From Escherichia coli (GTDB taxonomy: Bacteria; Pseudomonadota; Gammaproteobacteria; Enterobacterales; Enterobacteriaceae): DNA of 64,000 bases. A program made the translations under genes and the position numbers. The notes beneath the pieces are model-generated. The model saw nothing but the letters and a program-made list of their open reading frames with translations, made no database searches and was not told where the DNA came from. This document shows, one piece after another, positions 53,560 to 54,944 of the stretch. Numbering within the stretch: the stretch's first letter is position 1; the number at the start of each line of letters is the position of its first letter. Location: NCBI RefSeq assembly GCF_017348835.2, contig NZ_CP071375.1; one strand, written 5' to 3'.

Positions 53560-54309
53560 TGTCTATTCCTCAATTAATGTCTACATGGCTATTTTTAATG
53601 TTATTACTGTTTGTCACTATAAAAATCGCTCATTTGAGACAATTGCTGACATTAACTGTTTCACATGCTACGCATGGAACTTTTAATTAAATTAGCACAG
53701 GAATGTTAAATTTAATAAACAAAAGGTTATTTCGCTGTATGATAAAAACCACCCGTTATAATTTATTAGTGAAATTCGTTTTTCGAGTGTTAGAAATTTA
53801 TATCTAAATAGCGTTGATTAATGAGAAATGCCAGACTCCTGTAACGCTCATAAGACTCATCTGCCTGCGACGGGTGTTCTGGTCAGTAGTAGATGTTTAA
53901 GGCGTGCCAGAGACATTTCATACTTACTCTACGGCATTGTTCTACATACATTGGTTGTGGTACTCACTCATCATCAGTGAGCGAACAGAGAATAGTTCAG
54001 TGATTTGAGTAATTAACCTGATTAAATGAAGGGGTATAATAAATGATAATACTCTGGCTTTATCGTTAATTACTTAATTCCACATGTAAGCAATTTGCCC
54101 GCTTGGCATAGCGAGCATTTTTTCCAGGTACTTTTGAATGAGTACTGATGGATAAATACATTGCAGTGGCGTGCCACGTACCAAAACACCAGCCCTCATT
54201 CGAAACCACCCACCGCACTTCTTCCTTGAAATGGCGTTAGTCATGAAATATAGACCGCCATCGAGTACCCCTTGTACCCTTAACTCTTCCTGATACATGA
54301 ATGATGATT

Positions 54310-54385
54310 TGGTGGCCCTTGCTGGACTTGAACCAGCGACCAGGCGATTATGAGTCGCCTGCTCTAACCACTGAGCTAAAGGGCC
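54310..54385 (-). tRNA. ileY: tRNA-Ile2 (anticodon CAU, lysidine-modified type)
   Basis: Reverse complement GGCCCTTTAGCTCAGTGGTTAGAGCAGGCGACTCATAATCGCCTGGTCGCTGGTTCAAGTCCAGCAAGGGCCACCA: cloverleaf with anticodon-loop CTCATAA and encoded CCA; near-identical to E. coli ileX/ileY as I recall them. Confidence 0.9.
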
Positions 54386-54944
54386 TTGAGTGTGCAATAA
54401 CAATACTTATAAACCACGCAATAAACATGATGATCATATGATGTAAATAACAGATTTTTATGCGTTCTCATTCATCCTTGCTCGTCATTACACGCGACAT
54501 AAAACCCGACACCGCCTCTATTCGCAAAGTCGATACTCGCAGTCAACAAGCAAATGTTAATAATTAACACTATCTATAGTTATCATCGATTCAATGATAC
54601 TTTGTAATGATTTTGTATCTAATAATATAACTTTATTACATTAGCTGAAGAGTTTTCGCATCATTATGATATCTGTTACTTTTCACGCCATAAAAATAAA
54701 CTTCATATAGCAATATATTCTTTCATAGATCTTATTCTGCTAATCATTAGTTTCGTATGAGCGATTTTTGACAGTTGCCTCTCCAGACCACATCGATAAT
54801 TAAAAAAACAGATTTAAGCATTATCCTTTTCCATATAAATATTGGATAAAAGTAGGACATCTGTTTGCAATTACTTTCACAACAATTAAACATTTTTATG
54901 TTTCCATATACACCATATTACTCTACCATTAGAGGAACTTTATT

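What the first reader, a model, noticed from the sequence alone, without database searches (positions are those of the whole stretch)
53560..54944. AT-rich spacers flanking the tRNA-Ile2 gene
The tRNA is embedded in ~0.7 kb (upstream side) and ~0.55 kb (downstream side) of very AT-rich DNA with A/T tracts. These should hold the tRNA promoter and the divergent promoters of the two flanking hypothetical genes, and are good candidates for H-NS nucleation or small-RNA genes. The 109-aa ORF overlapping the tRNA is spurious.
Basis: inference. Interest (0 to 1): 0.3.

Follow-up and report, generated by a model that had tools for sequence, protein, structure and literature searches.

The report
AT-rich silenced spacers around tRNA ileY
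These are the two AT-rich intergenic regions around ileY, the spare isoleucine tRNA gene of E. coli; K-12 studies already map them as H-NS/Hha- and RNA-polymerase-binding DNA, and they are mostly fast-evolving filler apart from one unannotated conserved block of about 220 bp with RNA hairpins.

Summary
The window is E. coli chromosome. The finding is the ypjCB–ileY–ygaQ locus, and its coordinates and gene layout are correct.

**Composition.** The spacers are AT-rich (GC 37% and 31%, window 50%). They are no more AT-rich than the flanking genes (35% and 38%), so they belong to a ~5.5 kb AT-rich block.

**Distribution.** The locus is found only in E. coli and E. albertii. It is contiguous in about half of E. 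coli genomes and is often interrupted by islands integrated into ileY.

**Published K-12 data.**
- Sigma-70 and sigma-S RNA polymerase bind both spacers in vitro, and both are flagged as H-NS sites.
- Hha is enriched near ileY and ypjC.
- Rho termination regions lie on both strands just 3' of ileY.

**Small RNAs.** Rfam finds no RNA family besides the tRNA. The 109-aa ORF is spurious.

**New here.** One discrete block (53988–54211) is shared with E. albertii. It holds:
- A promoter-like site.
- A 70-nt stretch that is 96% conserved and ends in a hairpin plus T6.
- An 86-nt hairpin whose non-Watson-Crick pairs are all G·U on the tRNA strand.

Its function is unproven.

**Verdict.** Ordinary and largely known, with one modest new lead.

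The parts
53560..54309 (.). Spacer 1: 750 bp between the ypjCB start codon and the 3' end of ileY. It lies 3' of the tRNA. GC is 0.372.
54310..54385 (-). ileY, tRNA-Ile2 (anticodon CAU). The 3' 47 nt (54310-54356) form the crossover region for integrated islands.
   Evidence: The island junction falls in the anticodon loop in strains C012 and ET82.
54386..54944 (.). Spacer 2: 559 bp between the 5' end of ileY and the ygaQ start codon. GC is 0.306.
53988..54211 (.). Block A, the only part of spacer 1 that aligns with E. albertii. Identity to E. albertii is 67% for 53988-54054, 96% for 54055-54125 and 86% for 54126-54211. Diversity within E. coli is pi 0.023, against 0.065 in its flanks.
54126..54211 (-). 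Long imperfect hairpin of 32 bp. In E. coli every non-Watson-Crick pair is G·U on the minus (tRNA) strand, which is C·A on the plus strand.
   Evidence: The 150-nt minus-strand stretch containing it folds with z = -3.6. The 156-nt stretch 54085-54240 has MFE -52 to -60 on the minus strand against -31 to -45 on the plus strand. It is a near-perfect palindrome in E. albertii L088.
54096..54123 (+). Hairpin (54096-54117) followed by T6 (54118-54123), which looks like an intrinsic terminator on the plus strand. In this window, K-12, O157 and ET82 one stem pair is C·A on the plus strand but G·U on the minus strand.
54056..54125 (+). Putative ~70-nt plus-strand transcript body. It is the best conserved stretch of the spacers (68 of 71 positions identical to E. 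albertii over 54055-54125). It starts where a TSS would fall for the conserved -10-like GATAAT.
   Evidence: No matching Term-seq 3' end was found in K-12.
54013..54050 (+). Plus-strand promoter-like elements. TTAACC-16-TATAAT (54013-54040) has a -10 that is not conserved: it reads CATGAT in eight of the 13 aligned E. coli sequences and TACAAA in E. albertii. GATAAT (54045-54050) is conserved in all sequences. The ypjC promoter that the SELEX authors inferred (TTATCA-18-TTTAAT, minus strand) overlaps this site.
54002..54080 (+). 16-nt inverted repeat (54002-54017 and 54065-54080) bracketing the promoter-like site. The plus-strand fold has z = -3.6. E. coli and E. albertii differ by swapped G·U and A-U pairs that pair on the plus strand only.
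54420..54449 (-). 30-mer AATAAACATGATGATCATATGATGTAAATA, 35-65 nt upstream of the tRNA. It is identical between this window and E. albertii, with single-base variants in some E. coli strains. It is the likeliest place for the real ileY promoter or operator, but no good sigma-70 match lies in it.
54580..54621 (.). Back-to-back promoters inferred from K-12 genomic SELEX. They are TAGATA-16-TATCAT for ileY (minus strand, 54621 to 54594) and TTATCA-17-TGTAAT for ygaQ (plus strand, 54580-54608). Both lie in DNA that does not align with E. albertii.
54689..54777 (+). 89-nt footprint upstream of ygaQ, 84% identical to E. albertii. It ends in ATGAGCGATTTTTGACA.
54605..54944 (+). The ygaQ-proximal 340 bp, with the lowest diversity at the locus inside E. 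coli (pi 0.013).
54074..54403 (-). 109-aa ORF overlapping the tRNA. It is spurious.
52105..53559 (-). ypjCB (DUF5507 plus DUF5508), the flanking gene on the 3' side of the tRNA. It is hypervariable within E. coli.
54945..57197 (+). ygaQ, an alpha-amylase-family-like gene, divergent from ileY.

Best explanation
The two spacers are the intergenic regions of the E. coli ypjCB–ileY–ygaQ locus. This is a patchily distributed, AT-rich stretch of probably horizontally acquired DNA, about 5.5 kb long.

**How it most likely works**
- *Inferred from K-12 literature:* H-NS, with Hha, coats the AT-rich DNA. RNA polymerase can bind many AT-rich -10-like sites in both spacers. Whatever transcription escapes is cut short by Rho on both strands just 3' of ileY.
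- *Inferred:* ileY is a secondary, weakly expressed, dispensable copy of tRNA-Ile2. It also serves as an attachment site for integrase-bearing islands.
- *Shown here:* most of the spacer DNA evolves fast and carries no detectable element.

**Constrained pieces (shown here)**
- About 75 nt just upstream of the tRNA.
- The ygaQ-proximal region, including an 89-nt footprint.
- Block A (53988–54211).

**Block A** is most likely an RNA-level element at the point where two transcripts converge: ileY read-through on the minus strand and a small plus-strand transcript.
- *Shown:* the long hairpin is kept foldable on the tRNA strand.
- *Inferred:* the hairpin acts as a barrier or processing site in the ileY trailer.
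- *Inferred:* the hairpin plus T6 ends the opposing plus-strand transcript.
For: **Identity of the locus**
- The region is 99.9% identical to E. coli PE164 and 96.2% to K-12-like strains, with the same gene order.
- ssrA and rRNA genes are also in the window.

**AT-rich block:**

**Patchy distribution**
- Only 2879 of 5426 complete E. coli genomes keep at least 80% of 53400–55100 contiguous.
- Block A is present in 3091 of 5426 genomes, always on the chromosome and almost always as a single copy.
- It is absent from phage records. The only three plasmid-collection matches are 4.8–4.9 Mb E. coli records, that is, chromosome-sized.
- YgaQ homologues are found only in E. coli and E. albertii.
- Integrases sit next to a truncated ileY in strains C012 and ET82.

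**Published K-12 data**
- Sigma-70 SELEX peaks and 'HNS' marks in both spacers (PMC3946193).
- Sigma-S peaks (PMC5493296).
- Hha enrichment at ileY and ypjC (PMC2408971).
- An H-NS-repressed promoter inside ygaQ (PMC7229825).
- ileX cannot be deleted even though ileY is present, whereas ileY can be deleted (PMC11480407).
- Rho termination regions at K-12 2785734(-) and 2785647(+), which map to window 54282 and 54195. The only Term-seq 3' end is the mature tRNA end (PMC7815308).

**Evolution:** the diversity profile is and the cross-species identity profile.

**Structure**
- Only block A and the tRNA fold better than shuffles.
- 40 pairs are 99.4% paired over 12 haplotypes, and 14 pairs vary on one side only.
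- Every E. coli haplotype has 5–11 G·U pairs on the minus strand and none on the plus strand.
- In the surrounding spacers the background spectrum is only 60:45 in the same direction, and 45% of changes are transversions.
Against: - No H-NS, TSS or RNA data exist for this strain. All functional evidence comes from K-12 and is partly in vitro.
- The consensus scan finds fewer promoter-like sites than shuffles do, and no convincing sigma-70 promoter lies next to the tRNA.
- The hairpin shows no double-sided compensatory change.
- Block A's conservation (pi 0.023) stands out mainly because its neighbours are hypervariable (pi 0.05–0.10).
- The minus strand has G > C here, and G·U-forming transitions on it are modestly favoured (60:45). 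That bias accounts for part of the G·U asymmetry.
- E. albertii L088 shows that template-switch 'perfection' of the palindrome can occur without selection.
- The hairpin-plus-T6 stem is weakened on the plus strand in this window and in K-12.
- The Rho regions were called with 800-nt windows, so their positions are coarse.
Confidence: 0.72

Rival explanations
1. Block A encodes a genuine trans-acting small RNA on the plus strand. It would be about 67–77 nt long, start near 54047–54057 and end at the hairpin plus T6 (54096–54123). It would be silenced by H-NS under laboratory conditions, and its terminator would be degraded in some lineages, including K-12 and this window.
For: - A promoter-like site lies about 60 bp upstream of an intrinsic-terminator-like hairpin plus T6, the only such terminator in the scanned 1.9 kb.
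- The -10-like GATAAT is invariant in all sequences examined.
- Near-perfect conservation with E. albertii (68 of 71 positions) begins at the predicted start site and stops at the T-run.
- An AU-rich stretch precedes the terminator.
- K-12 shows plus-strand reads here and an 'orphan' Rho termination region about 70 nt beyond the T-run. That fits read-through of K-12's mismatched terminator.
Against: - No Term-seq 3' end at the T-run in K-12 in three growth conditions.
- No Rfam family matches.
- No entry in the supplementary files of the RIL-seq sRNA prediction paper that are held as text.
- The plus-strand fold of 54040–54130 is no better than shuffles, z = -0.1.
- The stronger TATAAT -10 is not conserved.
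- Three independent stem substitutions all weaken the plus-strand terminator while keeping the minus-strand hairpin. About half of the sampled loci carry such a variant.
Confidence: 0.2
2. Block A has no function. It would be ancestral intergenic DNA containing a quasi-palindrome that decays and is re-perfected by template switching. It only looks conserved because the DNA on both sides is replaced or diverges unusually fast, through island traffic at the tRNA and a hypervariable ypjCB.
For: - Block A's left edge (about 53988) is a synteny breakpoint: ypjCB lies there in E. coli and ykgM-ykgO in E. albertii.
- The DNA between block A and the tRNA cannot be aligned between the two species (40% identity).
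- Diversity in the block equals that of the tRNA and of ygaQ.
- E. albertii L088 differs from L018 by a cluster of changes that make the palindrome perfect.
- There are no compensatory double changes.
- The background spectrum is modestly biased in the direction that creates minus-strand G·U pairs, 60:45.
Against: - The asymmetry is too complete for that bias. In the helices, 8 of 10 polymorphic events in E. coli keep minus-strand pairing, where my calculation from the spectrum expects about 40%.
- All 7 fixed non-Watson-Crick pairs are minus-strand G·U, and none is a transversion mismatch, although 45% of background changes are transversions.
- The 96% identity of 54055–54125 is far above ygaQ (71%) and above the long hairpin (86%).
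Confidence: 0.3
3. The conserved block encodes a 41-aa protein on the minus strand (54199 to 54074; MRAGVLVRGTPLQCIYPSVLIQKYLEKM[P/L]AMPSGQIAYMWN).
For: - The frame is open in nearly all E. coli haplotypes examined and in both E. albertii versions.
- The C-terminal 14 residues are invariant.
- A weak GGUGG lies 6 nt upstream of the AUG.
Against: - pN/pS is 0.6–1.0 between the two species.
- Strain ET82 carries a nonsense mutation.
- The invariant C-terminal part shows almost no synonymous change either, which points to constraint on the nucleotides rather than on the protein.
- No Pfam match for the longer 109-aa ORF that contains it.
- The start codon is buried in the long hairpin.
- The peptide is not hydrophobic (GRAVY 0.19), so it is not like a type I toxin.
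Confidence: 0.05

Closest known systems
H-NS/Hha-silenced, horizontally acquired AT-rich loci of E. coli with pervasive spurious promoters and Rho-terminated transcripts (for example the ygaQ, yigG and wzxB regions studied in PMC7229825)
   Same: - AT content is about 12–19 points above the window average.
- The distribution across genomes is patchy.
- K-12 SELEX marks both spacers for RNA polymerase and for H-NS.
- Hha is enriched at the locus.
- A published H-NS-repressed promoter lies inside ygaQ.
- Rho termination regions lie on both strands.
   Different: - Occupancy was not measured for this strain, and no ChIP data could be read here.
- The H-NS 10-mer motif is not enriched in the spacers.
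- The locus carries a tRNA gene in its middle.
tRNA genes as attachment sites for integrase-bearing islands and phages (ileY is the ypjC–ygaQ 'tRNA-Met' insertion site of ter-operon elements, PMC8193136)
   Same: - In C012 and ET82, homology with the window breaks inside the anticodon loop.
- A tyrosine integrase gene lies next to the retained 3' 47 nt of the tRNA.
   Different: This window carries the empty site. Nothing in the spacers themselves is an integrase or a recognisable island end.
tRNA 3' external transcribed spacer RNAs (3'ETS-leuZ of the glyW-cysT-leuZ operon)
   Same: A conserved RNA-level element lies on the tRNA strand, downstream of the mature 3' end.
   Different: - The hairpin starts about 100 nt after the tRNA, not directly after it.
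- No intrinsic terminator follows it on that strand.
- K-12 data place a Rho termination region between the tRNA and the hairpin.
- No stable trailer RNA is reported.
Hfq-type intergenic small RNA genes (own promoter, seed region, GC hairpin plus U-tail)
   Same: - Promoter-like site, conserved ~40-nt body, AU-rich stretch, GC-rich hairpin and T6.
- Conservation is confined to the would-be transcript.
   Different: - No detected transcript with these ends in K-12.
- The terminator stem is mismatched in about half of the sampled loci.
- No Rfam family matches.
Enterobacterial intergenic palindromic repeats (REP/BIME, ERIC/IRU)
   Same: A long imperfect palindrome in transcribed intergenic DNA, with strand-specific G·U pairs.
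   Different: It is single copy in the genome (median 1 place per genome). No sequence similarity to those repeats was noted (from memory, not tested).

Membership tests
tRNA-Ile2 (ileY) | Cloverleaf tRNA with CAU anticodon, orthologous to K-12 ileY. | tested here: met
   ARAGORN and Rfam tRNA at 73.9 bits. Same position and flanks as K-12 ileY, annotated tRNA-Ile(CAU), with one difference in the anticodon stem.
tRNA-Ile2 (ileY) | Lysidine at position 34 made by TilS, so that the tRNA reads AUA. | not testable with these tools
   This is an RNA modification. It is inferred only from orthology with ileY and ileX.
H-NS-silenced horizontally acquired region | AT content well above the genome average. 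| tested here: met
   GC 0.31–0.38 over about 51.9–57.45 kb, against 0.50 for the window.
H-NS-silenced horizontally acquired region | Patchy phylogenetic distribution. | tested here: met
   Block A is in 3091 of 5426 E. coli genomes. The species representatives held no relative of YgaQ and only one contig with the block A 28-mer, a short contig filed under a Planococcaceae MAG. YgaQ is found only in E. coli and E. albertii.
H-NS-silenced horizontally acquired region | H-NS (and Hha or StpA) occupancy in vivo, with de-repression in hns mutants. | not testable with these tools
   Literature only: 'HNS' marks in the SELEX table, Hha pull-down at ileY and ypjC, and ygaQ listed among H-NS-silenced genes.
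Hfq-type trans-acting small RNA gene | Own promoter. | tested here: inconclusive
   TTAACC-16-TATAAT matches 10 of 12 positions, but its -10 is not conserved. GATAAT is conserved but has a weak -35.
Hfq-type trans-acting small RNA gene | Intrinsic terminator (GC hairpin plus U-run). | tested here: inconclusive
   A hairpin plus T6 is present. The 7-bp stem is perfect in the KE55/E118-type strains and in E. albertii, but has a C·A mismatch in this window, K-12, O157 and ET82.
Hfq-type trans-acting small RNA gene | A discrete transcript with these ends detected. | tested here: not met
   In K-12, Term-seq lists no 3' end between 2766897 and 2796240 other than the ileY end. Only an orphan plus-strand Rho region at 2785647 is reported.
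Hfq-type trans-acting small RNA gene | Match to a curated RNA family. | tested here: not met
   Rfam 15 at E<=10 finds only the tRNA and chance hits.
Structured cis-acting RNA (conserved hairpin) | Fold more stable than shuffles, on one strand. | tested here: met
   z = -3.6 to -4.3 on the minus strand against -1 to -1.6 on the plus strand. MFE is -52 to -60 against -31 to -45.
Structured cis-acting RNA (conserved hairpin) | Covariation (compensatory changes on both sides of pairs). | tested here: not met
   0 of 40 pairs change on both sides. 14 pairs change on one side only, through G·U.
Type I toxin-antitoxin | Small hydrophobic toxin ORF opposite or next to an antisense RNA. | tested here: not met
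   The only conserved open frame (41 aa) is not hydrophobic (GRAVY 0.19) and evolves with pN/pS 0.6–1.0.
REP/ERIC-type repeats or MITE | Many copies per genome. | tested here: not met
   Median 1 and maximum 2 places per E. coli genome, none on plasmids. No true phage or plasmid matches.
tRNA-gene attachment site for integrative elements | Island junction inside the tRNA 3' half, with an adjacent integrase, in some strains. | tested here: met
   C012 (L007) and ET82 (L014): homology ends at about window 54356 and an integrase gene follows.

The most novel reading that the evidence does not exclude
Block A (53988–54211) is an unannotated functional RNA module tied to the ileY transcription unit and shared by E. 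coli and E. albertii. It would consist of two parts:
- An 86-nt hairpin, selected to fold on the tRNA strand. It would act as a processing site, barrier or insulator for ileY read-through.
- A convergent ~70-nt small RNA on the opposite strand, ending in a terminator, that has been lost or weakened in some E. coli lineages.
Probability: 0.35. Interest if true: 0.45.

Novelty: already known. Interest (0 to 1): 0.25.

Why it matters
**The finding as written matters little.** It re-describes a K-12 locus whose AT-richness, in-vitro RNA-polymerase and H-NS binding, Hha enrichment and Rho termination are already in the literature.

**Two points have some value.**

- *Why ileY cannot stand in for ileX.* ileY sits in silenced DNA and has no good promoter. 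It is polymorphic, and some alleles mispair in the anticodon stem. The E. albertii copy has U54C. Together these give a concrete explanation, which allele-specific tRNA sequencing in hns and hha mutants could test.
- *Block A.* It is a small, well-delimited and previously unremarked conserved element with strand-specific RNA structure. It is a cheap target for a Northern blot or a deletion experiment.

Tried and rejected
- **Rfam.** Searched at gathering threshold and at E<=10 and found nothing but the tRNA.
- **H-NS 10-mer TCGATAAATT.** Two 2-mismatch hits fall in the spacers, about what the window-wide density predicts.
- **Repeat element or MITE.** Rejected, because the block is single copy.
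- **Phage or plasmid origin.** No real matches. The six viral-contig hits are the same chromosomal locus, called as prophage.
- **Relatives among species-representative genomes.** The YgaQ peptide scan found none. The 28-mer scan found one contig, filed under a Planococcaceae MAG; I take it to be E. coli contamination but did not check.
- **Distant YgaQ homologue P0008 (34% identity).** It lies in an unrelated context with no obvious link. Its tRNA content was not examined.
- **Type I toxin and small-protein readings.** Rejected on hydrophobicity and pN/pS.
- **Literature.**
  - The Thomason dRNA-seq paper is not held.
  - The RIL-seq paper has no supplements held as text.
  - The RIL-seq sRNA prediction supplements do not mention the locus.
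  - The Cappable-seq supplements gave no coordinates in range.
- **Sigma-70 promoter next to the tRNA.** Manual inspection found no convincing one. TTTACA-17-TTATTG and TATGAT with a poor -35 are the best candidates.
- **Shuffle control of the pair counter.** Uninformative, because only one side of each pair varies.
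Full report
**What the window is**

The window carries an rRNA operon, tmRNA (tag ANDENYALAA), RyfD and the Phe leader. The region 53400–55100 is 99.9% identical to E. coli PE164 and 96.2% to K-12-like strains.

RefSeq annotation of the matching DNA gives this gene order:
- ypjA
- a recombinase (pinH) remnant
- ypjCB, a DUF5507-family gene
- tRNA-Ile (ileY)
- ygaQ, an alpha-amylase-family gene
- glaH

In the window ypjCB is 52105–53559 (minus strand), ileY is 54310–54385 (minus strand) and ygaQ is 54945–57197 (plus strand). Pfam confirms DUF5507 plus DUF5508 for ypjCB and alpha-amylase-like domains for ygaQ. ARAGORN labels the tRNA Met because of its CAT anticodon. It is ileY, the second tRNA-Ile(CAU) gene, with one anticodon-stem difference from K-12.

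**Checking the observation**

The spacers are exactly 750 bp (53560–54309) and 559 bp (54386–54944). GC is 0.372 and 0.306, against 0.499 for the window. Three qualifications apply.
- Spacer 1 is heterogeneous. GC is 0.284 next to ypjCB but 0.422 over 53831–54309.
- The flanking genes are equally AT-rich (0.351 and 0.377) and have as many A/T tracts. The unit is therefore a ~5.5 kb AT-rich block, about 51.9–57.45 kb, not the spacers alone.
- With respect to the tRNA, the long spacer is 3' and the short one is 5'.

Sigma-70 consensus matches are not enriched: 5 were found, against 9.8 ± 2.9 in shuffles.

The 109-aa ORF is spurious. It reads through the tRNA, has no Pfam match and is interrupted by stop codons in three of six strains.

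**What is already published for K-12**

- *RNA polymerase binding.* Genomic SELEX with sigma-70 holoenzyme lists peaks in both spacers, and both are marked 'HNS'. The authors inferred TAGATA-16-TATCAT for ileY, TTATCA-17-TGTAAT for ygaQ and TTATCA-18-TTTAAT for ypjC (PMC3946193). The first is the minus-strand hit at 54621→54594 in my scan. Sigma-S holoenzyme also binds in or next to the spacers (PMC5493296).
- *Hha.* Hha pull-down enriches the ileY region and ypjC, and the binding depends partly on H-NS (PMC2408971).
- *ygaQ.* It holds one of six 'H-NS repressed intragenic promoters' (PMC7229825).
- *tRNA essentiality.* ileX cannot be deleted without a complementing plasmid although ileY is present, whereas ileY can be deleted (PMC11480407).
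- *Island insertion.* The ypjC–ygaQ tRNA is an insertion site for elements carrying the ter operon (PMC8193136).
- *3' ends and Rho.* Term-seq in K-12 reports only the mature ileY 3' end in this region. Bicyclomycin experiments give Rho termination regions at 2785734 (minus strand, labelled ileY) and 2785647 (plus strand, 'orphan'). These map to window 54282 and 54195. They were called from 800-nt windows, so the positions are coarse (PMC7815308).

I could not test occupancy directly.

**Population and cross-species comparison**

The locus is patchy.
- Only 2879 of 5426 complete E. coli genomes keep the region contiguous.
- In C012 and ET82, homology stops in the anticodon loop (about 54356) and an integrase gene follows.
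- YgaQ has homologues only in E. coli and, at 60% amino-acid identity, in E. albertii.

Diversity (pi) among five E. coli strains:

| Region | pi |
|---|---|
| ypjCB | 0.099 |
| Spacer 1, whole | 0.053 |
| Spacer 1, 53975–54205 | 0.023 |
| ileY tRNA | 0.024 |
| Spacer 2, tRNA-proximal 220 bp | 0.058 |
| Spacer 2, ygaQ-proximal 340 bp | 0.013 |
| ygaQ | 0.028 |

A metagenome scan with a 28-mer from the conserved part returned 72 loci. Two of them (L018, L067) and the genome locus L088 are E. albertii. There the order is ykgM–ykgO | block | ileY | ygaQ-like | glaH.

Identity between this window and E. albertii L018:

| Window region | Identity | Note |
|---|---|---|
| 53940–53987 | 29% | not homologous |
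| 53988–54054 | 67% | block A |
| 54055–54125 | 96% | block A |
| 54126–54211 | 86% | block A, long hairpin |
| 54212–54309 | 40% | unalignable |
| tRNA | 95% | |
| 54386–54459 | 74% | includes a 30-mer (54420–54449) identical between the window and E. albertii |
| 54460–54688 | 44% | holds the SELEX-inferred ileY and ygaQ promoters |
| 54689–54777 | 84% | footprint upstream of ygaQ |
| 54778–54944 | 45% | |
| ygaQ region (55104–57861) | 71% | |

Most of both spacers is thus unconstrained filler. The constrained pieces are few and short.

**Block A (53988–54211)**

This is the only place in the spacers, apart from the tRNA, where either strand folds better than shuffles. It contains four features.

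1. *A plus-strand promoter-like site.* TTAACC-16-TATAAT spans 54013–54040. Its -10 is not conserved, but GATAAT at 54045–54050 is invariant.

2. *A 70-nt stretch (54056–54125).* It is almost identical in E. albertii and ends in a GC hairpin plus T6. This is the only intrinsic-terminator-like site in the scanned 1.9 kb (53300–55200).

3. *An 86-nt imperfect hairpin (54126–54211).*
   - The minus-strand fold has z = -3.6.
   - The hairpin was already picked up, without comment, in a table of low-energy segments (PMC4448311).
   - Across haplotypes the minus strand folds at -52 to -60 kcal/mol and the plus strand at -31 to -45.
   - Over 12 haplotypes, 40 pairs are 99.4% paired. Fourteen pairs vary on one side only and none on both sides.
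   - Every E. coli haplotype has 5–11 G·U pairs on the minus strand and none on the plus strand.
   - In the surrounding spacers, transitions that make such G·U pairs outnumber the opposite ones only 60 to 45, and 45% of changes are transversions.
   - From that spectrum I estimate a random substitution at a G-C pair keeps minus-strand pairing about 37% of the time. Six of seven did (p about 0.01).
   - None of the seven fixed non-Watson-Crick pairs is a transversion mismatch or a plus-strand wobble.
   - This is evidence for selection on a minus-strand RNA fold, short of true covariation.

4. *A 16-nt inverted repeat bracketing the promoter-like site.* Its E. coli versus E. albertii differences pair only on the plus strand.

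Caveats on block A:
- Its left edge is a synteny breakpoint.
- Its conservation stands out mainly against hypervariable neighbours.
- In E. albertii L088 the palindrome is nearly perfect on both strands, consistent with template-switch correction.

**Interpretation of block A**

I favour an RNA-level element where ileY read-through (minus strand) meets a small plus-strand transcript.
- The long hairpin would be kept foldable on the tRNA strand as a processing, barrier or insulator structure.
- The hairpin plus T6 would end the plus-strand transcript.

K-12's mismatched stem fits two observations: no Term-seq 3' end at the T-run, and an orphan plus-strand Rho region about 70 nt further on.

The rivals are:
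- A true plus-strand small RNA that is silenced in the laboratory.
- A functionless quasi-palindrome.
- A 41-aa minus-strand frame. It is open in both species, but it evolves with pN/pS 0.6–1.0 and carries a nonsense allele.

None of these can be settled without strand-specific RNA data.

**Verdict**

- It is right about the spurious ORF.
- It is largely wrong in expecting recognisable small-RNA genes. One unannotated conserved block in spacer 1 remains a modest lead.

Noticed in passing
window 52105-53559: ypjCB is hypervariable inside E. coli. Among five strains pi is about 0.10 and 25% of sites segregate. Other strains carry frameshifts, internal stops, an IS3 insertion and a recurrent deletion of about 100 bp (52830-52929). 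This is several times the diversity of neighbouring ygaQ (pi 0.028) and of the tRNA (0.024).
   Followed up: partly
window 54310-54385, and loci L002-L087: ileY is very polymorphic for a tRNA gene. There are 10 alleles in 62 loci, with changes at positions 28, 42-44 and 67. One allele has an A28·C42 mismatch in the anticodon stem (5 of 62 loci), and another is compensated to A28-U42. The E. albertii copy has U54C in the T-loop. This fits a dispensable, weakly used gene.
   Followed up: partly
L007 4962-6475; L014 about 1800-3146 (window equivalent about 54356): In strains C012 and ET82 an island with a tyrosine integrase is inserted in ileY, and the junction lies in the anticodon loop. Only 2879 of 5426 complete E. 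coli genomes keep the locus contiguous.
   Followed up: partly
window 53621-53633 and 54757-54769: A perfect 13-nt inverted repeat, AAAAATCGCTCAT / ATGAGCGATTTTT. One copy lies upstream of each divergent flanking gene, and each is followed by a GACA-containing -35-like hexamer. The ygaQ copy is conserved in E. albertii. It may be a shared regulator site.
   Followed up: no
window 54605-54944: The 340 bp upstream of ygaQ are less diverse (pi 0.013) than the ygaQ coding sequence (0.028), even though ygaQ is a pseudogene in K-12 and O157. Only 54689-54777 aligns with E. albertii.
   Followed up: partly
window 46061-51299: ssrA (tmRNA) is followed directly by ypjA. The CP4-57 prophage that sits between them in K-12 is absent from this strain.
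   Followed up: no
window 54111 (K-12 2,785,563): A low-frequency G-to-A variant reported in a gallium-resistance evolution experiment (PMC6928379) falls in the hairpin of 54096-54117. That stem also shows natural G-to-A polymorphism at neighbouring positions (54113, 54114).
   Followed up: no
L018 1853-2256; L088 1328-2293: In E. albertii the ykgR–ykgM–ykgO genes (zinc-independent ribosomal protein paralogues) lie immediately left of block A, where E. coli has ypjCB–ypjA. The left edge of block A is therefore a rearrangement or island junction.
   Followed up: partly
L015 (DEQI01000374.1): A 2.8 kb contig of a 'Planococcaceae bacterium UBA3370' MAG carries the exact 28-mer from block A. I suspect E. 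coli contamination of the bin, but I did not compare the rest of the contig.
   Followed up: no
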